Origin: a virus
DNA: 19,093 bases
Strand: one strand, 5' to 3'
Virus genome (UHGV): UHGV-0806601
Shown: positions 2 through 19,066 of the stretch, in pieces
Layout of the letters: each line of letters starts with the position of its first letter
Numbering within the stretch: position 1 is the first letter of the stretch
Notes under the pieces: generated by a model
The model's input: only the letters and a program-made list of their open reading frames with translations
The model's database searches: none
Told to the model about the DNA's origin: nothing
Position numbers and translations under genes: made by a program

Positions 2-1180
2 CTGGGCGAATCCGACGCTCCTGGCTCCGTGAACGCCTCTGTGGGCAAATGGCAGCCAGTCCTGATCGACATGGCCAAACGTCTGGCTCCGGTCAACATC
101 GCGATGGACTTCTTCGGCGTTCAGCCGCTGTCTGGTCCTGACGGTCAGATCTTCGCACTGCGTGCTCGCCAAGGTGTTGCAGACGGTTCCAACACTGCAC
201 AGTCCCGTAAAGAACTGTTCATGCAGGAAGCTGATTCTGGCTATTCTGGTGACGGCACTGCTCAGGCTGGCGACCCATCTGGCTTTACCCAGACTGAGAT
301 CGAAGGTTCCGGCGCTGCTACCACCACCATCGGTAAAGGCATGCCATCTACCGACGCTGAACTGCTGGGCACCACCACCAACCCATGGGCACGTGTCGGT
401 ATCACCGTTCAGAAAGCAACCGTGACTGCGAAGTCTCGCGGCCTGTACGCTGACTACAGCCACGAACTGCGCCAGGACATGATGGCGATCCACGGCGAAG
501 ACGTTGACAGCATCCTGTCCGACGTGATGGTAACTGAAATTCAGGCAGAGATGAACCGTGAGTTTATCCGCACCATGAACTTCAGCGCAGTACGATTCAA
601 AAAATTCGGCACCAACGGTATCGTAGACATCTCCACTGACATCTCCGGTCGTTGGGCGCTGGAAAAATGGAAGTACATGACTTTCATGCTGGAAGTTGAA
701 GCGAACGGCATCGGTGTTGACACCCGTCGTGGTAAAGGCAACCGTGTTCTGTGCTCTCCGAACGTAGCATCCGCTCTGGCGATGTCCGGCATGCTGGATT
801 ATGCTCCGGCGCTGCAGGAAAACACCAAGCTGGCGATTGATCCGACTGGCCAAACCTTCGCTGGTGTGCTGTCTAACGGTATGCGTGTCTACATCGACCC
901 GTATGCAGTAGCAGAATACATCACCCTGGCATACAAAGGCGCAACCGCACTGGACGCTGGTATCTTCTTCGCACCGTATGTACCGCTGGAAATGTACCGC
1001 ACCCAGGGTGAAACCACCTTCGCGCCACGTATGGCGTTCAAGACCCGCTACGGGATTTGTGCTAACCCATTCGTTCAGATCCCAGCGAACCAGGATCCAC
1101 AGGTCTATGTGACTGCGGACGGTATCGCCCAGGACAGCAACGTGTACTTCCGTAAAGGGTTAATAAAAGGTTTGTTTTAA
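2..1180 (+). CDS. 23: major capsid protein, gp23-like, 5'-partial (continues upstream of the window)
   Basis: The frame is open from nt 2 with no stop before the first Met at 29. The translation matches remembered T4 gp23 blocks, e.g. FGVQPLSGPDGQIFALRA vs T4 CGVQPMNSPTGQVFALRA, and the C-terminal AGIFFAPYV...FKTRYGI..NPF region. A terminator follows. Confidence 0.9.
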   Translation: MGESDAPGSVNASVGKWQPVLIDMAKRLAPVNIAMDFFGVQPLSGPDGQIFALRARQGVADGSNTAQSRKELFMQEADSGYSGDGTAQAGDPSGFTQTEIEGSGAATTTIGKGMPSTDAELLGTTTNPWARVGITVQKATVTAKSRGLYADYSHELRQDMMAIHGEDVDSILSDVMVTEIQAEMNREFIRTMNFSAVRFKKFGTNGIVDISTDISGRWALEKWKYMTFMLEVEANGIGVDTRRGKGNRVLCSPNVASALAMSGMLDYAPALQENTKLAIDPTGQTFAGVLSNGMRVYIDPYAVAEYITLAYKGATALDAGIFFAPYVPLEMYRTQGETTFAPRMAFKTRYGICANPFVQIPANQDPQVYVTADGIAQDSNVYFRKGLIKGLF

Positions 1181-2217: not shown

Positions 2218-2418
2218 ATGAGCCTGAAAGAAGATTCTGTAAACACCACAGTCGCCAACTCCACCTTCCGTGAGTGGCACGACGTATTGTGTAAAGTCGC
2301 GAAAAGCCAGGGTGGTTCGGCCGCCGACGCCGACGCCTGGCGCGATGACTACGAAGCGGGCAAGACCCCGCGCCAGTCTTGGGAAGATGAATGGGGTTGG
2401 GAAGAACAAGAAGGATAA
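2218..2418 (+). CDS. hypothetical small acidic protein (66 aa)
   Basis: ATG at 2218 is preceded by GAGGAA. The ORF is Trp- and acidic-rich at the C-terminus (WEDEWGWEEQEG). No recognisable homology. Confidence 0.4.
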   Translation: MSLKEDSVNTTVANSTFREWHDVLCKVAKSQGGSAADADAWRDDYEAGKTPRQSWEDEWGWEEQEG

Positions 2419-2430
2419 CAGTTTTCAATA

Positions 2431-2457
2431 ACGGGGCGAGAGGTATTATTGCCCCGT
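2431..2457 (+). promoter_or_regulatory. intergenic stem-loop (ACGGGGC ... GCCCCGT)
   Basis: A 7-bp GC-rich inverted repeat with a 13-nt loop lies just upstream of the 2479 start codon. It could be a terminator or an RNA processing or regulatory hairpin. Confidence 0.35.
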
Positions 2458-2478
2458 CTACTATCCGAGGGTTGTACC

Positions 2479-2703
2479 ATGTACTTGAAAAAGATCGTGA
2501 AGAAGCCGAAAGCCGGTGTTGCCGAGGTGTGCCTCATCGAGGTTTACGTTGATTCTTGTAACAATGAGCAGTGTTACTTCATGGTCGACACGATGGTGTA
2601 TGTGCCAGCCTCTCACCTGAACCGTGATTTCGTCACAACCGAAAATGTCGTCCGCTGGGAGATTGCAACGCAGTCCGATATCGACGAACACAACATTCTT
2701 TGA
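2479..2703 (+). CDS. hypothetical protein (74 aa)
   Basis: ATG at 2479 with GAGGG upstream; compact spacing with its neighbours. Confidence 0.4.
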   Translation: MYLKKIVKKPKAGVAEVCLIEVYVDSCNNEQCYFMVDTMVYVPASHLNRDFVTTENVVRWEIATQSDIDEHNIL

Positions 2704-2720
2704 AAGGAAGGATCTATATC

Positions 2721-3164
2721 ATGTGTGACAAGAATTTCATTTTCATTAGTCCCGCCAAGAAACAGTTCTTCCGTAGCTCCGTTGGGGACAAGGCGGAAGG
2801 TTTCCGTAAATTCAAAGATTATCGCCTGGCATGCGGTGATGTTGATTTTCAGAGTTTCGACAATGATCGCCAGGATTTGAACGATGAGGGTTGGACAGAA
2901 GTTCCATCCCCACAGTTTATCGATGTCAAGCTGTACTACATGAAGGACAATGGGAAGTATTATTCAGAGGGTGTGATCAAAATCAACCGTGGGGAGGCCG
3001 AGGCCGAACCTGCTAAGTCCTGGATGGAGACTATGGATAAAATCCGCTATCTGCTTGACTCAGGCAATTTGCCTGGTTTGGTTAAAGGTGCCCAGTACGA
3101 GGTCTTCGTGACCGGAGAAGGGCATCCAGGTGGGTATCCGGCGGCATTCCGCATTAACAACTGA
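2721..3164 (+). CDS. hypothetical protein (147 aa)
   Basis: ATG at 2721 preceded by GGAAGG. The ORF track places an alternative TTG start at 2700. No homology recognised. Confidence 0.5.
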   Translation: MCDKNFIFISPAKKQFFRSSVGDKAEGFRKFKDYRLACGDVDFQSFDNDRQDLNDEGWTEVPSPQFIDVKLYYMKDNGKYYSEGVIKINRGEAEAEPAKSWMETMDKIRYLLDSGNLPGLVKGAQYEVFVTGEGHPGGYPAAFRINN

Positions 3165-3172
3165 GGTCAAAC

Positions 3173-3409
3173 ATGATTATCAAAAAGATCGGCGCAAGTC
3201 CTCTCACTGGTACTATATTCCAGGGCAGGTTGAACACCAAAACCAGCATGTGGGTTGGTGAGAAGACTGACGTGACAGATGACTGCGTGGCAGCTGTGGC
3301 TGAACATTTGCGTCACATCAAGAAAGACTATTGCTTCCCAACGACGGATGGTAAGTTTCTGGTGCTGAGCGCCGAGGTTCACGACACCCTTCCTGATCGC
3401 TTCAAATAA
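3173..3409 (+). CDS. hypothetical protein (78 aa)
   Basis: ATG preceded by GAGG; tightly packed 8 nt after the upstream stop. Confidence 0.45.
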   Translation: MIIKKIGASPLTGTIFQGRLNTKTSMWVGEKTDVTDDCVAAVAEHLRHIKKDYCFPTTDGKFLVLSAEVHDTLPDRFK

Positions 3410-3429
3410 ATTTTAAATTTATTCAATAA

Positions 3430-3458
3430 ACGGGGTTTACTTCTTCAATAAACCCCGT
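3430..3458 (+). promoter_or_regulatory. intergenic stem-loop (ACGGGGTTTA ... TAAACCCCGT)
   Basis: A perfect 10-bp inverted repeat with a 9-nt loop. The flanks are AT-rich, but there is no clean T-tract on the plus strand. Confidence 0.4.
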
Positions 3459-3512
3459 ATACTTCATTCCATAAGCAGCACAACACTGACTCTGAAATGA
3501 AGGAACTACACC

Positions 3513-3794
3513 ATGAAAACTAAAGCGCAATTGACTGAAGCCCTGAACGCTGGTACTATCACCCACTCTCGTTACAAAGTAACATTGCAGCAATTTGTTG
3601 GTATGGCCGTCAGAAATGCCAAATTCACCCCAATCTCTTCCCCTGAAAAATTTCCAGTTAAGGCCAGCCAGCCGAAGTTTTCGGTAGTTTGCCAGGGTGA
3701 AGAAATCACCGCTCTGTGGGAATATGATAACATGTATTTTGAATGTTCTGACGGCGTGTTAGCATACCATGTGGAAGGTGAGCATTTGTTCTAA
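3513..3794 (+). CDS. hypothetical protein (93 aa)
   Basis: ATG preceded by AGGAA; no homology recognised. Confidence 0.45.
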   Translation: MKTKAQLTEALNAGTITHSRYKVTLQQFVGMAVRNAKFTPISSPEKFPVKASQPKFSVVCQGEEITALWEYDNMYFECSDGVLAYHVEGEHLF

Positions 3795-3853
3795 ACCTTT
3801 GAACAGGGTATGTTAACCGCATACCCTATCCCCTACAAATAGAGGACTTTATC

Positions 3854-4174
3854 ATGGCTAACAGCATCCCGATTTTAGAAGCGGTCGTAAAGGAGAACCC
3901 TCGTGCGCGCAAATCACGTCGCTGCCTGACCACCAAACTGGATATTCTGAAACAGAAGTTCGGCGACCACAGCGTGTTCACTCGCATTCGCAATGCATTA
4001 AAGGAAGGGCGAACTGAGCTGGAACTATATCGACCGAACGGTTCGACACGCGCGTATCAGACCACTGACGGCTTACTGGAACTGATCCGCCTGAGCGGGA
4101 TGACGATCGAACCTCGTTCGTCAGGCACTCCTCTGTGCTCCCTGTACGTAATCGGCAATCTTGGGGCGCTGTGA
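3854..4174 (+). CDS. hypothetical basic protein (106 aa)
   Basis: ATG preceded by GAGGA. The N-terminus is Arg/Lys-rich (PRARKSRR). Confidence 0.45.
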   Translation: MANSIPILEAVVKENPRARKSRRCLTTKLDILKQKFGDHSVFTRIRNALKEGRTELELYRPNGSTRAYQTTDGLLELIRLSGMTIEPRSSGTPLCSLYVIGNLGAL

Positions 4175-10283: not shown

Positions 10284-10953
10284 ATGCAAGAGATCACTCT
10301 CTCCGAACGTACACTTCAGTTGCTGGCCAACTTTGAGACCATCAACCCATCTATCGTTCTGACACCGGGCAAGATGCTGCGCAGTATTAATGATTCTTCT
10401 ACTGTGATCGCCGTGGCGCAGATCGAAGAAGACTTCCCGTTTGAGTTCCCGATTCTGGACCTGACCAAACTTCTGGCCATCCAGCGCCTACCTTCCTTCA
10501 AAGGTGCCAAAGCCGAATTCCATCAGGACTACATCCTGTTGAAAGGCGAAAGTTCTCAGCTGCAATTCTGGCGTTCTGCTAAAGAACTCACGGTTGTCCC
10601 GGCTGATACTATTTGAACTGCCGTCTGTCGACTTTGAAGCGATCATCACTCCAGAGAAGATGAAAGAACTGACCCGCGCCTGCTCTACCCTAGGACATAA
10701 GACTGTGCGTCTGGTTGCTCAGGGTGGCAAAACACGCCTGGTTGCAACCACCACTACCCTGGACAACTCCAACAACTACACTGTTGAGCTGGGCGAAACC
10801 GCGCTGCCGGACTTCGTAATGCCACTGGATGTTGCCAACCTGAAAATGATCGAAGGCAACTACACTCTGCGTGCATGTGCTGATCTACAAATGGTGAACT
10901 TCCAATCATCCGACGCGACGATCAATTACTTCGTCGGCGCACAGATTGAGTAA
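10284..10953 (+). CDS. 45: sliding clamp (gp45 homolog), reading frame interrupted by a one-base frameshift near 10611-10616
   Basis: Two adjacent ORFs (10284-10616 and 10594-10953) together align collinearly with remembered T4 gp45 (FWRSAKELTVVPADTI / ELPSVDFEAIIT vs T4 FWPAADPSTVVAPNKPIPFPVASAVTEI). The second has no ATG (the track uses TTG). The shift maps to the T-run ACTATTTGAACTG. Confidence 0.7.
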
Positions 10954-10969: not shown

Positions 10970-11002
10970 TGCTATAATGTGTGGGCGGGGGAGTTCCCCG
11001 CC
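10970..11002 (+). promoter_or_regulatory. extended -10 element (TGCTATAAT) followed by a GC-rich hairpin between gp45 and gp44
   Basis: TGcTATAAT at 10970-10978; hairpin GGCGGGG (10984-10990), loop GAGTT, CCCCGCC (10996-11002). Function (promoter, attenuator or RNA processing) is not resolved. Confidence 0.3.
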
Positions 11003-11034
11003 TATTTGAAATGATTCTTCTACACGAGGCTGAA

Positions 11035-12024
11035 ATGTCTAATATCACTATCGTTTCCGACCAGTACGCATGGGAAAACAAGTACCGCCCTGACAACCTG
11101 GACGAGATTATCATCCCTCAAGACGTCCGCGCTAAAATCCATGGCTACATCACCAGCGGCAACGGCAACATCCCGTCTATGCTGTTCTACTCTCCTCAGC
11201 CTGGTACTGGCAAGACTACCTCCGCCCTGGCCGTGTGTAATGAAATCGGTTGTAAGCAACCACTGATGATCAACGCATCCCTGGACAACAGCATCGACGT
11301 TATCCGTGACCGCGTGATTCAGTACTCTACTGGTGTGAGTGTATTCGGTGGCCGCAAAGTCGTTATCCTCGACGAAGTAGAGCGTCTGTCTATGGCGGCA
11401 CAGGAGTCGCTGAAGGGTATTGTGGAGAAGGTCTCCAAGAACTGTTCATTCATCTTGACCACCAACGCCAAGCAACGTGTGAACGAACCTCTGCGCTCTC
11501 GTTGCCGTGAAATCGACTTTATCTGGAATGAGACCGAGGCTGATGAGGTCAAACTTCAGTTCATGCGCCGCTGTGCTGAAATCCTTCGCTGCGAAGGTGT
11601 TGAGTATGACCCTCCTGTGTTGGCTGCTATTGTCAAGCGCCATTTCCCTGATAACCGCCGCATCATGGGTGTTCTACAGGATAACGTCACCACTTACGGC
11701 AAGATCGACGAACGTGCACTGGCTGTGTTAAAATCGGCCGATATGGGCATGTTGGTGAATATGTTGAAGGATAATGACTGGGCTGGGATGAAGCAGTGGG
11801 TGACCGACAACCAGAACTATATCACTGAAGACTTCTATTCCCGCTTCTTCCAGTTCTGTGTACCACAGGATAAAGAGAAGCAAATGTTGGTTCAGAATGA
11901 GTCTATCCCTGATCTGGTATGCGTATGTGGTCAGTCTCAGATTGAACACCGTCAAGTCGGCGATGTCTGGCTGCATGCTGTGTTTTTCCTGACCAATGTC
12001 ATGCTCAACATCAAGTGGAAGTGA
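11035..12024 (+). CDS. 44: clamp loader large subunit (gp44 homolog, AAA+ ATPase)
   Basis: KYRP..LDE...P motif and Walker A PQPGTGKTT, matching remembered T4 gp44 (EQKYRPSTIDECILP...SPSPGTGKTT), plus DEVER and SRC motifs. Start placed at the ATG at 11035 with GAGG upstream. Confidence 0.85.
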   Translation: MSNITIVSDQYAWENKYRPDNLDEIIIPQDVRAKIHGYITSGNGNIPSMLFYSPQPGTGKTTSALAVCNEIGCKQPLMINASLDNSIDVIRDRVIQYSTGVSVFGGRKVVILDEVERLSMAAQESLKGIVEKVSKNCSFILTTNAKQRVNEPLRSRCREIDFIWNETEADEVKLQFMRRCAEILRCEGVEYDPPVLAAIVKRHFPDNRRIMGVLQDNVTTYGKIDERALAVLKSADMGMLVNMLKDNDWAGMKQWVTDNQNYITEDFYSRFFQFCVPQDKEKQMLVQNESIPDLVCVCGQSQIEHRQVGDVWLHAVFFLTNVMLNIKWK

Positions 12025-12028
12025 TATT

Positions 12029-12451
12029 ATGGCCGCTCTTGGATTGTTCGATTACCTGGCTGCTCTGAACAGCAGCAAAGAAAACCTTTTGCGGTCTGAT
12101 GACCCAGAAGTGTTGAAAGGATTCGACCCGTTTATGACGCGGCGTGGTTTAGCTCAGAGCAAAGACACTCTAGTGGCTGCGCAACAGATGAATAAGCTAC
12201 ATGCTATCACTCCATGGATGCAATGGTCATATGCCTTTTACACCATTCCGGCTCGGAAACGCTACGACAAATGGTCTAAGAAAGGTCCGATTGATCCTGA
12301 CGTGAAGTTACTCTCCGAGTACTTCTACATCAGCATGGAGAAGGCATCGGAGTACGTCCGTTTCTTGCCGAAGGAAGTCCTGGCCGAGATACGCGAGAAG
12401 ATGAGACGCACTGAGCTGAACGCCAAAGCGAAACCGCGCAAGGCTAAATAG
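12029..12451 (+). CDS. 62: clamp loader small subunit (gp62 homolog)
   Basis: Position immediately after gp44 as in T4. PARKRYDKWSKK resembles remembered T4 gp62 PRGKRYGKWAK. The start is ambiguous between 11996 and 12029. Confidence 0.6.
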   Translation: MAALGLFDYLAALNSSKENLLRSDDPEVLKGFDPFMTRRGLAQSKDTLVAAQQMNKLHAITPWMQWSYAFYTIPARKRYDKWSKKGPIDPDVKLLSEYFYISMEKASEYVRFLPKEVLAEIREKMRRTELNAKAKPRKAK

Positions 12452-12480: not shown

Positions 12481-12945
12481 ATGGCGCGTAATACGCTAGA
12501 CATATTGAATATTTCAGCAGTCAACGATGAGGCCAGCATCGTTGATTGTATGGTTGAAGTTCAATTGAACCAAGATCGGCCAGGTATATTCCTGGGGATC
12601 AAGGAAACACTGAGTCGAATTGGGGTAAACACGCGCCAAGAGCCGAATACTCTGTATCAGACTTGCCATATTCTTCATAAGTGTGGTAAGTATTATATCG
12701 TCCACTTTAAGCATCTATTTATGCTGGACGGGCATTACAACGGATTTAACCGCGAAGATGTCCTGAGGATGAACCGAATCATCAAGCTGCTGGAGCAGTG
12801 GAACATGGTGAAGGTCATTCATCCTGAGCAGGTCACCGAAGCAGCCGATATGTCTCGCATTAAAGTGGTTAAACACGATCAGGTTCCTGAATGGAAGCTG
12901 GTTCCAAAATACATCATCCGGCCTACGAAGGCAAAAAGCGAATAA
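12481..12945 (+). CDS. regA: RegA translational repressor homolog
   Basis: KETLSRIGVNT...LYQTCHILHKCGKYYIVHFK and EWKLVPKYII match remembered T4 RegA (KETLTRMGIAN...LYQSCHILQKKGLYYIVHFK; EWKLVPKYTI). An alternative start at 12550 would match T4 length better. Confidence 0.75.
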   Translation: MARNTLDILNISAVNDEASIVDCMVEVQLNQDRPGIFLGIKETLSRIGVNTRQEPNTLYQTCHILHKCGKYYIVHFKHLFMLDGHYNGFNREDVLRMNRIIKLLEQWNMVKVIHPEQVTEAADMSRIKVVKHDQVPEWKLVPKYIIRPTKAKSE

Positions 12946-12961
12946 CTGGAGTCGCTATATT

Positions 12962-13834
12962 ATGACAACTACATTTTCTAAGAACGTGAATCTGAATCTG
13001 GCTTTCGGTAATGCAAAGGGCGACGTCACATCGCCTGACTTTGGTAAGATCCGCAATCAGGCGAAACTGGTGCTGGAAGAGACCCGCGAACTGCTGGAAG
13101 CGGCGTTCTTTGACCATGATGTGAAGGTGGAATTCACTGCAACTCCACGAGTCCTGAAAGAACCCGTTGTTGTCGACATCAAAGACATTATGCGCCAGAT
13201 CATGGATGCCCAGGGCGACATCACCACTGTCAACGACGGTTTGGCTCATATTGCTGGTTTCGACGGTGACGAATGCTTACAGCGCGTGTATGCCTCTAAC
13301 ATGAGCAAGTTCATCCGTAATGAAGACGAAGTTGTGCCTGCACTGGATTACTACTACAACAAAGGCTTCCCACGCGAAAGTCTGCGCATCGAAGGGGAAT
13401 TCCCTCAGGCGTGCATCAAAGTGGTGAACACCATCACCGTCGACGGCAAAGAGTACCCGGCTGGCAAGTTCCTGAAGAACATGGCAACCTTCAAAGAGCC
13501 TGACTTCTCTGATATGTTGACCACCGAGCCTAAGCGCCAGATCACCGAAATCATTCTGACGGGTACGGCCATTCCAGGCCAGCTCGGTTCTAACGAACAC
13601 GCTGGTGTTGCCTTCGCTCCTTTCGATTTTATTGACGAGATCATGGGATACACCAAGATGGGCTTCCAGGCGTTCTCTGGCGAAACAGTCGAGAGCTACA
13701 TTCCCGTGTTTGTTTTCAATGAAGACAACTTCCCAACTCTACCGTTGATCTGGGGTGAATGGAAAGCCAACGTCCGTATCTATGTGGCCAGCCCAGTGCA
13801 ATCATCTATCACCCAACTGACCCGTATCGATTAA
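12962..13834 (+). CDS. hypothetical protein (290 aa) with a possible MazG/HisE-like NTP pyrophosphohydrolase N-terminal domain
   Basis: An EExxExxE helix (LVLEETRELLEAA) followed by an Asp-rich helix (DAQGDITTVNDGLAHIAGF) is reminiscent of all-alpha NTP pyrophosphatases. The C-terminal 150 aa is unassigned. GGAG ribosome-binding site. Confidence 0.45.
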   Translation: MTTTFSKNVNLNLAFGNAKGDVTSPDFGKIRNQAKLVLEETRELLEAAFFDHDVKVEFTATPRVLKEPVVVDIKDIMRQIMDAQGDITTVNDGLAHIAGFDGDECLQRVYASNMSKFIRNEDEVVPALDYYYNKGFPRESLRIEGEFPQACIKVVNTITVDGKEYPAGKFLKNMATFKEPDFSDMLTTEPKRQITEIILTGTAIPGQLGSNEHAGVAFAPFDFIDEIMGYTKMGFQAFSGETVESYIPVFVFNEDNFPTLPLIWGEWKANVRIYVASPVQSSITQLTRID

Positions 13835-13857
13835 GATATACAGTTATTCACTAAACA

Positions 13858-13886
13858 ACAGAGGCTATAATGGCCTCTGTTTTCGT
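13858..13886 (+). terminator. rho-independent terminator
   Basis: Stem ACAGAGGC / GCCTCTGT with a 7-nt loop, followed by TTTTCG. Confidence 0.5.
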
Positions 13887-13902
13887 ATTCTAAGAGGATA
13901 CC

Positions 13903-15126
13903 ATGAAAGATAAAGCCCTAGACGTCCCGTACTGCGGTGTCCGTGAAGAAAAGATAAAGTCGGCCAAACCGGTTCTCAGTCCGACCCATACCCGCCTGTC
14001 TTACGAATGGATGAGCGAGCGCTATAAGATCCACGTCAAGAAGGATGTCCAGCGCCTTCCTGCTCCTTGGACTGATAATCCCATATTACGGCAGGTCAAG
14101 TTCTGTAATGTCCGGAGAGAGCACGACAGGCAGTCTCTCAACCTGATCAACAACATCGTCAACAACGATGCTCTGGGTATGGCCGACAAGATGTTCAACT
14201 GCGTGTTGTTCCGCATGTTCAACCTCTGGGATCCAATCCAGGCTATTGGCGGCGCGATGACGATCAAAGAATTCGCCAAGATCAACCTCGATACAACCCG
14301 CGAACGACTTCAGAAGTTCGAGGCCGACGGTGGTAAGGTATTCACCAATGCCTTCAACACGGGCGGCCTGAAGCAATGCCTGGCTTTCCCTGAGCTGGTT
14401 GTCAACCACAAAGAGCAGCGCTTCGGTGGGATGATGGTGAAAGTGTATCGCGTTGGCCAGGGTATTGTGGACGAGATGGACTACAAGGTCGCCAAGAAGC
14501 TGGTCGAAGAGAATCCTGGTGAATATACCATCGAGGGATGGGAACCGTACATGCCAATGCGTGTCATCCGCTCCCTGAAGGCATTCGTCAACAAGTATCC
14601 AAATTATTTCCATGACCTGCTGCGCCTTGGTACTCCTTTGGAAGTATACCAGCGCATGTACGACGACATCGAAGGGCTTGGTCCATTCTTGGCCTATCAG
14701 ATATGGGTTGACTTCACGTACATGCCGGGTTATCCGTTTAGTGAGAACCACTTCACGGTTGCTGGACCAGGCTGTCGCGCAGGTATTGATCTGCTGTTCC
14801 TGAACAAAGACGGTATGACTCACGAAGAATGCATCTTCTGGCTACGGGATAATCAGGACGCAGTGTACTCCCAATATGGGTATGTTCGCGAGCAATTCTG
14901 GTCGGCCGAAGAGCCTGTAGATCAGTGCATGAACGTTATGCAGCTGGAGAACATGTTCTGTGAACTGAGCAAGTACACCCGCTGTGTTGAGGCTGTACAG
15001 CAAGGTAAAAAACCGCGCGGGAAGGTCAGCTATGACGGCGGTGGGGAATACAAAAAGCGCTGTGATGAAGTCGTGCTCAAACGCGGTTCCGTCAATTTGC
15101 TGGACCGTTTGAAGAAACCTGAATAA
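13903..15126 (+). CDS. hypothetical protein (407 aa) with a helix-hairpin-helix-like motif
   Basis: YDDIEGLGPFLAYQIW fits the HhH signature h-x-x-h-x-G-h-G-x-x-x-A. Strong AGAGGA ribosome-binding site. No T4 homolog recognised. Confidence 0.5.
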   Translation: MKDKALDVPYCGVREEKIKSAKPVLSPTHTRLSYEWMSERYKIHVKKDVQRLPAPWTDNPILRQVKFCNVRREHDRQSLNLINNIVNNDALGMADKMFNCVLFRMFNLWDPIQAIGGAMTIKEFAKINLDTTRERLQKFEADGGKVFTNAFNTGGLKQCLAFPELVVNHKEQRFGGMMVKVYRVGQGIVDEMDYKVAKKLVEENPGEYTIEGWEPYMPMRVIRSLKAFVNKYPNYFHDLLRLGTPLEVYQRMYDDIEGLGPFLAYQIWVDFTYMPGYPFSENHFTVAGPGCRAGIDLLFLNKDGMTHEECIFWLRDNQDAVYSQYGYVREQFWSAEEPVDQCMNVMQLENMFCELSKYTRCVEAVQQGKKPRGKVSYDGGGEYKKRCDEVVLKRGSVNLLDRLKKPE

Positions 15127-15241
15127 AGATTCCCTTTACTTCGTTCTTCAATAACTCTTTTCAACGTATTATTGACCTCACTTAAACGAAGCGCCCTGGC
15201 AAACGGGGCGCACATTTGAACTGAAACAGGAAGATTACATC

Positions 15242-17260
15242 ATGTCAGATTTTAAGCCCTTCGCAGTAGCTGTCAACAATAACGTGCTGGCCATGTCAGC
15301 AACTGGTCTGTTCATGACCAACATCGATAAAGATGCTCTGTGGGATCTGTATCTGTCTTCTTTCCCTGCTGGCACTAACCCGCTCTACCGTGAGCGTACC
15401 GAGCACGACTGCACCTGCTGTAAACAATTCATCCGTAACATCGGCGGTGTGGTCACCATCGACGCCGACCTGAACGTGATCTCTATCTGGGATAACATTC
15501 AGCTGGGTAACGAATACGACGTTGTCGCTGCGGCGCTGTCAGCGTATGTTAAGCAACACGCAATCGTCGACGTGTACTTCAACGACACCAAGAAAATTGG
15601 TGTTGAGTCGAATCACGAAATGAAAGACGGTATTGTCCGCACCTACAACCACTTCCACACCGACCTGCTGGGCAGCTATGTTCTGCGGGCAGATGCCATC
15701 GCTTCTAAGAAGGGTGAAATCCGCCAGGCGATTGAAGTGTTTGAGCGCGGCCTGCGTGAACTGTCTCTGGAATCGGCTGAAATCGTTCTGGAATTGATCG
15801 ACCAGAATTCTCTGTATCGCGGTGAAGAGCACAAAGCGGCAGTGCAGGCGTTCGTGGTGAACAAGACCATGTACGAACAAACTGCAGAAGAGAAACGCGC
15901 TCTGTGGGCTTGGCGCACTGGCTACCGTGCAAACGGTCATATCCCTCACGGCATTCGTAATACCGTGATTGGCTCTCTGCTGGTAGACCTCAATGAAGGC
16001 CGGGATTTGGAAACCGCCGTGAAGTCCTTTGAAGCCAAAGTCGCCCCGACGAACTACAAGCGCCCAACCGCGCTGGTCACGAAGTCTATGATTGAAAACG
16101 CGCAGAAAGAAGTCGAAGCGCTGGGTCTGACTGATTCACTGGGTCGCCGTTATGCCGTGTATGACGATCTGACCATCAACAACGTTCTGTTTGCCGACCT
16201 GGCAGCACAGAAGAAGATGGACCCGTTTGCTCAGCTGGCGTCTGAAGTGAAGACTCCGACCAAGTCCCTGGACAAGGTTGAAGAGATCACGATCGACGAT
16301 TTCCTGACCAACGTGTTGCCAAAGGCGCATTCCCTGGAAGTGCTGGTCGAAAACTCTCACATTGGCAACCTGATGTCCCTGATCGCTCCGGCTACCGCAG
16401 GCGCTCCTAACCTGTTCAAGTGGAACAACGGCTTCAGCTGGTCGTACAATGGCGAAGTGGCCGACTCTATCAAAGAGCGCGTGAAGACCGCAGGCGGCAA
16501 CGTCGACAGCTTCCTCCGTGTGTCGCTGGCGTGGCATAACAACGACGACCTGGATCTGAGCATGAACGATCCTCTTCACAACCACGTGTATTATCACAAC
16601 CGTCGTTCGGCAACTGGCGCAACCCTGGATATCGACATGAACGGTATGGACGGCATTGATCCCAACCGCCGCCCGGTGGAGAACATCTTCTTCAGCGATG
16701 AACGCAAGCTACGTGATGGTCTGTACGAGTTCTATGTCACTAACTTCAGCCAGCGTGAAACCTGTGATATGGGCTTCGAAATCGAAGTTGAATACAAAGG
16801 CCAGACCAAGCGTTTTTCGCATCCTGGTCTGAAGCACAAAGATCGCACTCTGGCTGTTGTGATTGATGTCCGCGCTGGTCAGGTGGTCAACATCAGTTCT
16901 ACCCTGAAGGACGACGCTCGCTCTCAGGAAATCTGGGGCATCAAGACCTCGGTCTTCCAGAAGGTACAGCTGGTTCTGAACTCACCAAACCATTGGGACG
17001 GTGAGCAGACTGGCAACAAGCACGTGTTCTTCATCCTGGAAGGTTGTGCTAACCCTGTCGGCACCCGTGGCTTCTATAACGAATATCTGAAGCCGGAACT
17101 TGATAAACACCGCAAGGTTTTTGAAATGTTAGGTGGTAAGATTAAAGTACAGCCAAGCACTGAGCAGCTGTCCGGTCTGGGCTTCTCTACCACCCAACGC
17201 AACCACGTGTTCGTGAAGGTGAGCGGTTCGTTCAACCGCACTGTGAAAGTTGTGTTCTAA
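15242..17260 (+). CDS. large hypothetical protein (672 aa)
   Basis: A long ORF with an AGGAAG ribosome-binding site and protein-like composition. Contains an H-D-C-T-C-C cluster near residue 55. No Walker A and no polymerase motifs seen. Confidence 0.6.
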   Translation: MSDFKPFAVAVNNNVLAMSATGLFMTNIDKDALWDLYLSSFPAGTNPLYRERTEHDCTCCKQFIRNIGGVVTIDADLNVISIWDNIQLGNEYDVVAAALSAYVKQHAIVDVYFNDTKKIGVESNHEMKDGIVRTYNHFHTDLLGSYVLRADAIASKKGEIRQAIEVFERGLRELSLESAEIVLELIDQNSLYRGEEHKAAVQAFVVNKTMYEQTAEEKRALWAWRTGYRANGHIPHGIRNTVIGSLLVDLNEGRDLETAVKSFEAKVAPTNYKRPTALVTKSMIENAQKEVEALGLTDSLGRRYAVYDDLTINNVLFADLAAQKKMDPFAQLASEVKTPTKSLDKVEEITIDDFLTNVLPKAHSLEVLVENSHIGNLMSLIAPATAGAPNLFKWNNGFSWSYNGEVADSIKERVKTAGGNVDSFLRVSLAWHNNDDLDLSMNDPLHNHVYYHNRRSATGATLDIDMNGMDGIDPNRRPVENIFFSDERKLRDGLYEFYVTNFSQRETCDMGFEIEVEYKGQTKRFSHPGLKHKDRTLAVVIDVRAGQVVNISSTLKDDARSQEIWGIKTSVFQKVQLVLNSPNHWDGEQTGNKHVFFILEGCANPVGTRGFYNEYLKPELDKHRKVFEMLGGKIKVQPSTEQLSGLGFSTTQRNHVFVKVSGSFNRTVKVVF

Positions 17261-17304: not shown

Positions 17305-17677
17305 ATGTTTGATAAAGCAACCCGTCTGAAACTGCGCTTCGAGTCTAACAAAGGTCTGCTGTCTGTTGAGCAGGTTTGGGACCTGAGCCTGACCGCCCTG
17401 AACGAAATGGCGAAAGGTCTGAGCCGTCAGGTGAAAAGCAGCAGAAACCGATGAAGAAGATTTCATTGGCACCAAAAGCAACGTTGACTCCGAACTGCAG
17501 CTGCGCTTCGACGTTGTCAAGCACATCATCGGCGTTAAGCTGAAAGAACGTGACGACAGCAGAGACGCGGCAGAGCGTAAGGCGAACAACCAGATTATCC
17601 TGGAGCTGATCCAGCGTAAGAAACAGCAAGAGCTGGAAAGCAAATCTGTTGAAGAACTGGAAGCACTCCTGAAATAA
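17305..17677 (+). CDS. hypothetical protein (about 123 aa if joined), interrupted by a one-base frameshift at the A-run 17434-17437
   Basis: Frame 1 runs ATG 17305 to a stop at 17452-17454 (49 codons). The next frame is open from 17435 to the stop at 17675-17677 with no start codon of its own and protein-like sequence (..FIGTKSNVDSELQLRFDVVKHIIGVKLKERDD..). GAGGA ribosome-binding site. Translated by hand. Confidence 0.45.
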
Positions 17678-17701
17678 TCTGTCTGACCTCAGCCTGAGCA
17701 A

Positions 17702-17727
17702 CCCCGCCATGTGCGGGGTTTTCTTTT
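17702..17727 (+). terminator. rho-independent terminator
   Basis: CCCCGC (17702-17707), loop, GCGGGG (17713-17718), then TTTTCTTTT; nearly the same module as at 1211-1238. Confidence 0.6.
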
Positions 17728-17738
17728 GGACAAAGAAT

Positions 17739-18149
17739 ATGAAACCTGTTATATGTGATTACTGTGGCCTCCCAGCCGAATTCGTCGGTGGTGATGTTCT
17801 CTACCCTCATCGCCCTGACCTCCGCAATCTGAAGTTCTGGGTGTGCACTCCATGTGATGCCCGTGTCGGTTGCCATGCCCATGGCGACGGCAGACAACCT
17901 CTGGGAAGGATGGCGAATGCCGCTCTCCGTGCTGCTAAGCAGGAAGCCCATAGATCGTTTGACCCATTGTGGAAAAGCGGAGAGAGGAGCAGGAGCGACG
18001 CTTACAGTTGGCTGGCGCATAAGCTGGGGATAAAGAAGCGTGAGTGTCATATTGGCTTGTTCGATATCGACATGTGCCGTAAAGTAGTTGTTGTCTGTCA
18101 ACAATACGAGGCACATATCAATGTCAAAGGAAATACAAGAAGCGTTTGA
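17739..18149 (+). CDS. zinc-ribbon protein of unknown function
   Basis: CxxC (C6, C9) and CxxC (C36, C39) pairs in the N-terminal 40 aa. The track start at 17709 lies inside the terminator loop, so the ATG at 17739 is preferred. Confidence 0.5.
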   Translation: MKPVICDYCGLPAEFVGGDVLYPHRPDLRNLKFWVCTPCDARVGCHAHGDGRQPLGRMANAALRAAKQEAHRSFDPLWKSGERSRSDAYSWLAHKLGIKKRECHIGLFDIDMCRKVVVVCQQYEAHINVKGNTRSV

Positions 18150-18775: not shown

Positions 18776-19066
18776 ATGTTTCGTTTGAAATTGAACGACC
18801 AAGATGTGTTCTACAAACACTTCACCTTCCCAGGTGGTGAGGAACATATCAAGATCCAAAAGTCTGGTATCCCTATCGGCCACGTTCAGAACGTGGTGAT
18901 TGATGCTCACATCAAATCATCAGCCGACTTCATTGAGCTGGCGCTTCTGGTTAATGCCGTTCGTGGTCTGGGTAACGTGGACCGCCTGACGACATTCCAT
19001 GCATATATCCCGTACTTTCCATCTGCGCCAGCAGTTCTCGGTTACAGTACCAGCCATATTCGATGA
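18776..19066 (+). CDS. ORF resembling the N-terminal domain of ribose-phosphate pyrophosphokinase (PRPP synthetase-like), apparently truncated
   Basis: F.GGE..I.I...(30 aa)..ELALLVNAVRG....RLTTF.AYIPYF parallels the remembered Prs N-domain pattern F.DGE..V.I....ELL.M.DALRRASA.RITAVIPYFGYARQDR. The ORF stops after 96 codons, just before the window end. GAGG ribosome-binding site. Confidence 0.35.
   Translation: MFRLKLNDQDVFYKHFTFPGGEEHIKIQKSGIPIGHVQNVVIDAHIKSSADFIELALLVNAVRGLGNVDRLTTFHAYIPYFPSAPAVLGYSTSHIR

What the first reader, a model, noticed from the sequence alone, without database searches (positions are those of the whole stretch)
12962..17260. Three-gene cluster of non-T4 proteins where T4 carries DNA polymerase after regA
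The 45-44-62-regA operon is conserved here, but instead of gene 43 it is followed by three large same-strand genes (290, 407 and 672 aa) with their own ribosome-binding sites and terminators and no recognisable T4 counterpart. In T4 the neighbourhood beyond regA and gene 43 holds the base-modification genes (gene 42 dCMP hydroxymethylase, beta-glucosyltransferase), as I recall. Taken together with the MazG-like and HhH-like motifs, a nucleotide-pool or DNA-modification module is a plausible hypothesis. I cannot confirm any specific family from sequence alone.
Basis: partly seen in the sequence, partly recalled or inferred. Interest (0 to 1): 0.7.

Follow-up and report, generated by a model that had tools for sequence, protein, structure and literature searches.

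The report
Known ViI-type phage thymidine-hypermodification neighbourhood
The three genes after regA are real, but they are the standard genes of ViI-like (Ackermannviridae) phages: a MazG-type nucleotide pyrophosphatase, the published hypermodification-associated protein gp160 (aGPT-Pplase1), and an unrelated, widespread protein of unknown function (DUF8224).

Summary
ORFs 12962-13834 (290 aa), 13903-15126 (407 aa) and 15242-17260 (672 aa) are intact and follow 45-44-62-regA, with no DNA polymerase in the window. The window is an Ackermannviridae (Agtrevirus-like) E. coli phage, 96% identical to phages LHE287 and AV101. The same gene order occurs in more than 200 deposited genomes, including Salmonella phage ViI.

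- **Gene 2** is 87% identical to ViI gp160 (aGPT-Pplase clade 1, Pfam PF18723, E = 6e-82). It has a helix-hairpin-helix DNA-glycosylase fold and a family-wide invariant Cys353-Glu354. It belongs to the published gene set for 5-(2-aminoethoxy)methyl-dU synthesis, but its own reaction is unassigned.
- **Gene 1** is a MazG/PRA-PH-superfamily NTP pyrophosphohydrolase with a lineage-specific C-terminal domain.
- **Gene 3** is DUF8224, with a TerD-like domain. With the ~123-aa gene after it (17305-17677, frameshifted here) it forms a separate two-gene module found in many unrelated phages.

Nothing here is new. The one open lead is that Pplase1 may be the unidentified enzyme that converts 5-hydroxymethyl-dU to thymine in DNA.

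The parts
12481..12945 (+). regA translational repressor (context; last gene of the T4-like 45-44-62-regA block)
   Evidence: Pfam Translat_reg 2.1e-34; phrog_242
12962..13834 (+). MazG/PRA-PH-superfamily NTP pyrophosphohydrolase, 290 aa. The catalytic all-alpha domain spans aa 1-190 and carries an invariant E39-E40-x-x-E43 and D82/D86. The C-terminal domain (aa ~191-290) is specific to Ackermannviridae. Ortholog of ViI Vi01_131c (orf00161).
   Evidence: phrog_2144 'MazG-like pyrophosphatase' 1e-131 and phrog_671 6e-20. No direct Pfam hit. hhalign to Pseudomonas phage SM1_0125 gives prob 99.3%, E = 1.7e-20, and that protein hits Pfam PRA-PH (2e-7) and MazG (2e-4). The N-domain-only ortholog in Cygsa01 gives prob 99.9%. 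Alignment A4.
13857..13881 (+). 11-bp hairpin followed by TTTTCGTATT: terminator or attenuator-like element between genes 1 and 2
   Evidence: -20.5 kcal/mol, z = -4.4
13903..15126 (+). aGPT-Pplase clade 1 (Pfam PF18723, now named HMUDK_hel), 407 aa. Ortholog of ViI gp160. HhH DNA-glycosylase fold; HhH hairpin G288-P-G290 (nt 14764-14772); invariant C353-E354 (nt 14959-14964).
15191..15211 (+). GC-rich hairpin without a T-run in the gene 2-gene 3 spacer. In relatives this spacer holds homing-endonuclease insertions.
15242..17260 (+). DUF8224 (PF26675) protein, 672 aa. N-terminal alpha/beta domain with invariant E51, D56, C57, C60 and H137; helical middle region; TerD-like beta-sandwich at aa ~420-555 (nt ~16499-16906) with invariant D435-D436-x-D438, D463-x-D465-x-N467 and E480-N481; C-terminal domain. 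Ortholog of ViI orf00158.
17305..17677 (+). Conserved ~123-aa helical partner gene of DUF8224. In this window it is interrupted by a +1 frameshift (extra A at 17434).
   Evidence: A homologous gene directly follows DUF8224 in AV101, ViI, CR8, Pokken, TsarBomba, phiRSL1 and a metagenome contig. The frameshift was located by alignment to AV101.
17700..17720 (+). Intrinsic-terminator-like hairpin with a T-run that closes the DUF8224-partner unit

Best explanation
The window comes from a ViI-like (Ackermannviridae, Agtrevirus-type) phage. In that family the T4-like block 45-44-62-regA is followed not by the DNA polymerase but by three conserved early or middle genes that belong to at least two unrelated functional units.

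Unit 1 is genes 1 and 2, linked with different degrees of certainty to this family's thymidine hypermodification. Established for ViI: the phage replaces dTTP with 5-hydroxymethyl-dUTP, polymerises 5-hmdU DNA, phosphorylates the hydroxymethyl group with the 5-hmdU DNA kinases, transfers serine with gp247 (Pplase2) and decarboxylates with gp226. The product is 5-(2-aminoethoxy)methyl-dU on about 40% of T positions, and the remaining positions end up as thymine.

Gene 2 is the gp160 ortholog (Pplase1). I infer that it flips the 5-substituted uracil out of DNA with its HhH fold. The invariant Cys353, helped by Glu354, would then attack C6 and expel the phosphate to form the exocyclic-methylene intermediate, as shown for Pplase2. 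Which nucleophile or reductant resolves that intermediate is unknown. My preferred guess is formation of thymine at sites that do not receive serine.

Gene 1 is inferred to hydrolyse a (d)NTP to (d)NMP and PPi and so shape the nucleotide pool. The substrate is unknown; dTTP or dUTP is the guess that fits the pathway.

Unit 2 is gene 3 (DUF8224, with a TerD-like Ca-binding domain) plus the ~123-aa gene after it. This two-gene module is widespread, its function is unknown, and it is independent of base modification.
For: - **Identity and synteny:**. The gene order in ViI is regA (orf162), MazG-like (orf161), gp160 (orf160), orf158.
- **Gene 2:** PF18723 at 6e-82; 87% identity to gp160; HhH-glycosylase fold including the solved Pplase2 structure 8z2m. 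Cys353-Glu354 are invariant from Ackermannviridae to SP10 gp186C and Microbacterium phages.
[quoted passage not shown] The Cys-C6 mechanism and the E-T-x-x-C active site are established for Pplase2 (PMC8989533; PMC11472151; PMC13458397).
- **Gene 2, context:** in Vibrio phage D528 and Pseudomonas phage Cygsa01, Pplase1 lies two small genes downstream of kinase2-Pplase2. In D528 it also lies about 2 kb upstream of dUMP hydroxymethylase, dNMP kinase and dUTPase_2.
- **Gene 1:** PHROG assignment and transitive profile links to PRA-PH/MazG. An all-alpha dTTPase/dUTPase is documented in a thymine-hypermodifying phage (PMC13458397).
- **Gene 3:** the distribution is independent of hypermodification genes. 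The partner gene is conserved in six distant lineages. TerD fold. A terminator comes only after the partner gene.
Against: - No activity is known for any Pplase1. The published in-vitro route to 5-NeOmdU uses kinase, gp247 and gp226; gp160 is not among the proteins to which that paper assigns a function (PMC8989533).
- Sequence methods do not link Pplase1 to Pplase2: blastp finds nothing, and hhalign gives prob 0.5%, E = 0.11. The mechanistic analogy therefore rests on fold similarity plus a conserved Cys.
- Gene 1 has no direct Pfam or PDB sequence hit.
- ViI has a better-placed dTTPase candidate: a dUTPase_2 protein next to dUMP hydroxymethylase.
- Gene 1 homologs occur in N4-like phages and SM1-like Pseudomonas phages; no hypermodification genes were noticed in the 3.5-5.5-kb stretches fetched around them, and their genomes were not screened.
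- For gene 3 there is no functional evidence at all beyond fold and context.
Confidence: 0.8

Rival explanations
1. One reading: the three genes form one co-operating nucleotide-pool and DNA-modification operon that occupies the gene 43 slot.
For: All three are on the same strand and tightly spaced, and the order is conserved across enterobacterial Ackermannviridae. Genes 1 and 2 plausibly touch the same pathway.
Against: DUF8224 and its partner gene occur in Vequintavirinae, Schitoviridae, Bastillevirinae, phiRSL1 and phiCbK-like phages; neither hypermodification genes nor the MazG-like gene appear in the four 14-kb neighbourhoods examined (CR8, Pokken, TsarBomba, phiRSL1). In Cygsa01 Pplase1 sits with Pplase2 while the MazG-like gene stays after regA. 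A hairpin with a T-run separates genes 1 and 2. In relatives, homing-endonuclease genes are inserted between genes 2 and 3.
Confidence: 0.07
2. Pplase1 is a second group transferase, a functional paralog of gp247. It would add serine or another nucleophile to 5-PmdU in other sequence contexts, or act as the main transferase where Pplase2 is absent, rather than form thymine.
For: SP10 makes alpha-glutamylthymidine but has only a Pplase1 domain, fused to its kinase, and no detected Pplase2 (PMC5889632 Table 3). It shares the fold and the conserved Cys with Pplase2. Iyer and Aravind predicted this activity for both clades (cited in PMC8989533).
Against: In M6 the reaction that forms the glycine adduct works with kinase gp54 and gp51 alone, with the second paralog gp55 left out. 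In ViI, gp247 was necessary in the lysate reconstitution, and the paper assigns no function to gp160 (PMC8989533). No second hypermodified base has been reported in ViI DNA (PMC5889632; PMC11721090).
Confidence: 0.3
3. The MazG-like protein is a general house-cleaning or host-manipulating NTP pyrophosphohydrolase (for example acting on non-canonical dNTPs or alarmones) and has no specific role in hypermodification. Its position next to Pplase1 is a historical accident.
For: Homologs of the N-terminal domain occur in N4-like Cbunavirus, Klebsiella and Erwinia Schitoviridae and in Pseudomonas phage SM1, next to portal or structural genes. ViI-type genomes carry a separate dUTPase_2 enzyme inside the dUMP-hydroxymethylase cluster.
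Against: The gene is conserved in all Ackermannviridae examined, and in Cygsa01 too. dTTP exclusion is required for the pathway, and a related all-alpha enzyme performs it in phage 15599.
Confidence: 0.45
4. DUF8224 and its partner act in nucleic-acid end repair, or as an anti-defence function, that responds to Ca2+ or another metal through the TerD-like domain.
For: Copies lie near ligases or end-healing enzymes in Xp12 (PNKP and DNA ligase), phiRSL1 (NAD-dependent ligase 3 kb away) and a metagenome contig (LigD_N/ligase-like and RNA_ligase genes). The acidic TerD-type motifs are conserved.
Confidence: 0.15

Closest known systems
Salmonella phage ViI (Vi01) orf00161-orf00160-orf00158, i.e. 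Vi01_131c, Vi01_130c (gp160), Vi01_129c/128c
   Same: Same gene order after regA. Gene 2 is 87% identical over 407 aa. Gene 1 is about 61% and gene 3 about 81% identical in Kuttervirus phages.
   Different: The C-terminal domain of the MazG-like protein has diverged. ViI's orf00158 is annotated as two CDS. The window's phage belongs to the Aglimvirinae/Agtrevirus lineage.
aGPT-Pplase clade 2 / amino-acid:DNA transferase (ViI gp247, M6 gp51, PaMx11 gp46 PDB 8z2m, YuA and 15599 Pplase2; Pfam PF18724)
   Different: There is no detectable sequence homology and the Pfam family differs. The motif is E/x-N-x-x-C-E rather than E-T-x-x-C. No donor substrate or product is known.
SP10 gp186 (5-hmdU DNA kinase fused to a C-terminal PF18723 domain)
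   Same: Same Pfam family and the same invariant residues: R72, D75, R76, G-P-G, C353-E354, K357.
   Different: 23% identity. It is fused to the kinase. SP10 lacks a Pplase2 and makes alpha-glutamylthymidine.
All-alpha NTP pyrophosphohydrolases that exclude a canonical dNTP in modified-DNA phages: T4 gp56 dCTPase/dUTPase (own knowledge) and phage 15599 gp18 dTTPase/dUTPase (PMC13458397)
   Same: MazG/dimeric-dUTPase superfamily chemistry and a plausible pool-shaping role.
   Different: No substrate has been tested. The extra 100-aa C-terminal domain has no match in Pfam, PHROGs beyond its own family, or PDB sequences, and no structure was predicted for this protein. The genome has another candidate of dUTPase_2 type.
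TerD tellurite-resistance proteins (PDB 2qz7, 2kxt)
   Different: No Pfam TerD hit. The domain is embedded in a 672-aa multidomain phage protein, and there is no ter operon context.

Membership tests
aGPT-Pplase clade 1 (Pfam PF18723, HMUDK_hel) | Profile HMM score above the curated gathering threshold | tested here: met
   275.6 bits against a cut-off of 25, E = 6e-82, covering profile positions 4-280 of 281
aGPT-Pplase clade 1 (Pfam PF18723, HMUDK_hel) | Helix-hairpin-helix DNA-glycosylase-type fold | tested here: met
aGPT-Pplase clade 1 (Pfam PF18723, HMUDK_hel) | Conserved cysteine with neighbouring glutamate (putative active site) | tested here: met
   C353-E354 are invariant in 32 close homologs and 6 distant ones, including SP10 gp186C
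aGPT-Pplase clade 1 (Pfam PF18723, HMUDK_hel) | Co-occurrence in the genome with a 5-hmdU DNA kinase and a dUMP hydroxymethylase | not testable with these tools
   The window is only 19 kb and holds neither gene. The feature is met in relatives: ViI, D528 and Cygsa01, and Agtrevirus SW16-7 (PMC10458263).
aGPT-Pplase clade 1 (Pfam PF18723, HMUDK_hel) | Enzymatic activity on 5-hmdU or 5-PmdU DNA | not testable with these tools
   No activity is assigned to any clade 1 member in the papers read
Amino-acid:DNA transferase, aGPT-Pplase clade 2 (PF18724) | Profile HMM match or detectable homology to gp247 | tested here: not met
   No PF18724 hit for gene 2. blastp to gp247 finds nothing. hhalign prob 0.5%. 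gp247 itself hits PF18724 at 3e-58.
MazG / all-alpha NTP pyrophosphohydrolase superfamily (gene 1) | Profile match to MazG, PRA-PH or dUTPase_2 | tested here: inconclusive
   No direct Pfam, NCBIfam or PDB sequence hit. phrog_2144 'MazG-like' at 1e-131. The link is transitive: hhalign 99.3% to SM1_0125, which hits PRA-PH at 2e-7 (above its cut-off) and MazG at 22.0 bits (equal to its cut-off).
MazG / all-alpha NTP pyrophosphohydrolase superfamily (gene 1) | Acidic metal-binding motifs (EExxE, then a second acidic pair on a later helix) | tested here: met
   E39-E40-T-R-E43 and D82...D86 are invariant in alignment A4. That these are the family's motifs is my own knowledge.
TerD domain (in gene 3) | TerD beta-sandwich fold | tested here: met
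TerD domain (in gene 3) | Pfam TerD profile match | tested here: not met
   No TerD hit at E <= 0.1
DUF8224 (PF26675) (gene 3) | Profile match | tested here: inconclusive
   The model is absent from the local Pfam copy. Precomputed PF26675 is carried by all listed full-length homologs, including 99%-identical ones, and is named DUF8224.
T4 gene 43 family-B DNA polymerase | Any polymerase domain in the three ORFs | tested here: not met
   No polymerase family hit in Pfam, PHROGs or NCBIfam

The most novel reading that the evidence does not exclude
Pplase1 (this 407-aa protein, the ViI gp160 ortholog) is the long-sought enzyme that converts phosphorylated 5-hydroxymethyl-dU in newly replicated phage DNA back to canonical thymine at positions that do not receive the hypermodification. 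It would use Cys353 to generate the exocyclic methylene, as Pplase2 does, and then a reductant in place of an amino acid.

This is not excluded by my evidence. The fold and the Cys are conserved. Every Pplase1 neighbourhood examined here has a thymidylate-synthase-type gene nearby, that is, the pre-replicative 5-hmdU route. Pplase1 was detected in at most a few mycobacteriophages, which pair a thymidine hydroxylase with Pplase2 (27 Mycobacterium phage records hit gp247; Mycobacterium is not among the top organisms for Pplase1). Pplase2 plus borohydride already yields thymidine (PMC8989533).
Probability: 0.2. Interest if true: 0.75.

Novelty: already known. Interest (0 to 1): 0.27.

Why it matters
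As a finding it mainly confirms that the window is a ViI-type phage, whose DNA very probably carries 5-(2-aminoethoxy)methyl-dU. That matters for restriction digestion, sequencing and phage-therapy work with such phages. Two loose ends remain. First, Pplase1 is conserved across the thymidine-hypermodifying phages compared here, yet has no assigned reaction, while the conversion of 5-hmdU to thymine in DNA has had no assigned enzyme since the 1980s. Second, DUF8224 and its small partner form one of the more widespread uncharacterised two-gene modules of large phages (about 4800 clusters at 50% identity).

Tried and rejected
- **Sequence searches of solved structures** with each protein and with family profiles found nothing usable.
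- **hhalign of Pplase1 against gp247**, alone or as a 4-sequence Pplase2 alignment, was not significant. The best alignment did place E349/C353 on gp247 E282/C287, which I treat as suggestive only.
- **NCBIfam and PADLOC** gave no hits for any of the three proteins.
- **Literature searches** for PF26675 and for TerD with phage anti-defence found nothing. Iyer et al. 2013 and the EcoSal review were not available, and no supplementary files of PMC8989533 are held as text. I therefore could not check whether a reaction omitting gp160 was reported.
- **T4-type late promoter TATAAATA:** no occurrence in the window. Sigma-70-like sites are no more frequent than in shuffles.
- **Horizontal island replacing gene 43:** considered and rejected. 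There is no composition shift, and the arrangement is shared by the enterobacterial Ackermannviridae genomes matched, including ViI.
- **Small genes after the short DUF8224 homologs** (Xp12, PaBG, D69) are not clearly homologous to the ~125-aa partner.

Full report
**What is there**

The window holds three intact same-strand ORFs at exactly the stated coordinates: 12962-13834 (290 aa), 13903-15126 (407 aa) and 15242-17260 (672 aa). They follow a T4-like replication block:
- clamp at 10284-10953;
- gp44 at 10981-12024;
- gp62 at 11996-12451;
- regA at 12481-12945 (Pfam and PHROG).

No DNA polymerase gene is present. Composition is unremarkable.

**Origin**

Megablast places the segment in Ackermannviridae. 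It is 96% identical over 5 kb to Escherichia phages LHE287, YX22 and AV101. Of 283 matching records, 218 cover at least 80% of the query. In Salmonella phage ViI the order is the same: regA (orf00162), MazG-like (orf00161), orf00160, orf00158. The ViI DNA polymerase sits about 55 kb away.

**Gene 2 (407 aa)**

- It matches Pfam PF18723 at E = 6e-82. This family was formerly called aGPT-Pplase clade 1 and is now named "5-hmdU DNA kinase, helical domain".
- It is 87% identical to ViI Vi01_130c, which is gp160.
- Lee et al. [quoted passage not shown] It was one of five lysates that together reconstituted 5-(2-aminoethoxy)methyl-dU (PMC5889632).
- Lee et al. 2021 assigned reactions to the kinases gp67 and gp243, the serine:DNA transferase gp247 (clade 2) and the PLP decarboxylase gp226. 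They gave no function for gp160 (PMC8989533).
- One GenBank record (phage Guerrero) already annotates the ortholog as Pplase1.

Across family members as distant as SP10 gp186C and Microbacterium phage proteins, the invariant residues include the G-P-G hairpin and Cys353-Glu354-x-x-Lys357. In clade 2 a cysteine in an E-T-x-x-C motif attacks C6 of 5-phosphomethyl-dU and generates an exocyclic methylene (PMC8989533; PMC11472151; PMC13458397). I infer the same first half-reaction for Pplase1.

Gene context supports pathway membership. In Vibrio phage D528 the order is kinase2, Pplase2, two small genes, Pplase1, about 2 kb of uncharacterised ORFs, then dUMP hydroxymethylase, dNMP kinase and dUTPase_2. 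In Pseudomonas phage Cygsa01 the order is kinase2, Pplase2, two small genes, Pplase1.

**Gene 1 (290 aa)**

- It has no direct Pfam, NCBIfam or PDB sequence hit.
- It belongs to phrog_2144, labelled "MazG-like pyrophosphatase".
- Its first 190 residues align by hhalign (99.3%, E = 1.7e-20) to Pseudomonas phage SM1_0125, which reaches Pfam PRA-PH and MazG.
- E39-E40-x-x-E43 and D82/D86 are invariant.
- The last ~100 residues are specific to Ackermannviridae and more variable.
- N-domain-only orthologs occur in Cygsa01, again after regA but away from Pplase1, and in N4-like phages.
- ViI-type genomes also carry a dUTPase_2 enzyme inside the dUMP-hydroxymethylase cluster.

A pool-shaping dTTPase/dUTPase role is plausible by analogy with phage 15599 gp18, but it is not established. 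A general house-cleaning role is about equally likely.

**Gene 3 (672 aa)**

- This is DUF8224 (PF26675).
- The family is very large: 4772 clusters at 50% identity, with full-length members still 40-50% identical.
- It occurs in 557 phage records. These include Vequintavirinae, Klebsiella KB57-like phages, phiCbK-like Caulobacter phages, phiRSL1, N4-like Zuri and Pokken, Bastille-like Bacillus phages, SP-15 and Microcystis phage MaMV-DC. Most of these are not among the records that carry Pplase1 or Pplase2.
- In AV101, ViI, CR8, Pokken, TsarBomba, phiRSL1 and a 210-kb metagenome contig, the gene is immediately followed by a homologous ~125-137-aa helical protein (35-46% identity to the AV101 copy).
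- In the window that partner is 17305-17677, broken by an extra A at 17434. The first good terminator comes after it, at 17700-17720.

Gene 3 therefore belongs to a separate two-gene module of unknown function.

**Verdict**

Its interpretation is right for genes 1-2, including the families it proposed to test, and wrong for gene 3 and for the idea of a single module. The arrangement is already known.

The most interesting reading still open is that Pplase1 is the unidentified enzyme that converts 5-hmdU to thymine in DNA. Lee et al. 2018 state that this conversion "is still unknown". Three points favour the idea:
- The fold and the cysteine are conserved.
- In every neighbourhood examined here, Pplase1 sits near a thymidylate-synthase-type gene, which marks the pre-replicative 5-hmdU route.
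- M6 gp51 with borohydride yields thymidine from 5-PmdU.

One point counts against it: SP10 makes its adduct without any Pplase2. I put this reading at about 0.2.

Noticed in passing
window 10284-10953 (frameshift at 10612): The gene 45 sliding-clamp gene is split into two ORFs (10284-10616 and 10594-10953) by one extra T in a T-run, relative to phage AV101 (99.1% identity otherwise). This is probably a sequencing or assembly error, but it could be a real mutation.
   Followed up: partly
window 17305-17677 (frameshift at 17434): The conserved ~123-aa gene downstream of DUF8224 is interrupted by one extra A in an A-run, relative to AV101. Two homopolymer frameshifts within 7 kb suggest an error-prone assembly.
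   Followed up: partly
window 18776-19066: This is the N-terminus of a ribose-phosphate pyrophosphokinase/NAMPT-like gene (phrog_12872, phrog_619), and the ORF stops early. AV101 has an RPPK and NAMPT pair at this position. Such pairs have been linked to NAD+ restoration against NAD-depleting defences (own knowledge, not tested).
   Followed up: no
window 29-1180 and 1285-2133: A major head protein gene fragment is followed directly by a homing-endonuclease gene (phrog_314).
   Followed up: no
window 15127-15241: The spacer between Pplase1 and DUF8224 is a hotspot for insertions in relatives. AV101 carries two extra ORFs here, and Marshall, Maynard and Kamild carry an HNH homing endonuclease.
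   Followed up: partly
L017 (Vibrio phage D528) 3148-11341; L018 (Pseudomonas phage Cygsa01) 3051-7185: In these distant relatives the hypermodification genes are clustered: kinase2, Pplase2, two small ORFs, Pplase1, and in D528 also dUMP hydroxymethylase, dNMP kinase and dUTPase_2. In enterobacterial Ackermannviridae they are scattered. The small ORFs between Pplase2 and Pplase1 are uncharacterised.
   Followed up: partly
L022 (Microbacterium phage Carostasia) 2387-3259: A short (290-aa) PF18723-like 'pyrophosphorylase' that keeps the Cys-Glu motif lies near thymidylate synthase, a glycosyltransferase and thymidylate kinase, with no Pplase2 or 5-hmdU kinase annotated within 8 kb. This may be a different 5-hmdU-derived modification.
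   Followed up: no
L019 (Xp12) 2339-3988; L020 (PaBG) 2327-3943; L021 (Vibrio phage D69) 2432-4030: Shorter (530-550-aa) proteins match only the N-terminal ~400 residues of DUF8224. The Xp12 copy lies between ribonucleotide reductase and PNKP plus DNA ligase.
   Followed up: partly
window 17700-17720 and 17709-18149: The terminator hairpin overlaps the first ATG of the listed DUF3268 zinc-finger ORF (146 aa; the AV101 homolog is annotated as 136 aa). The true start is probably further downstream.
   Followed up: no
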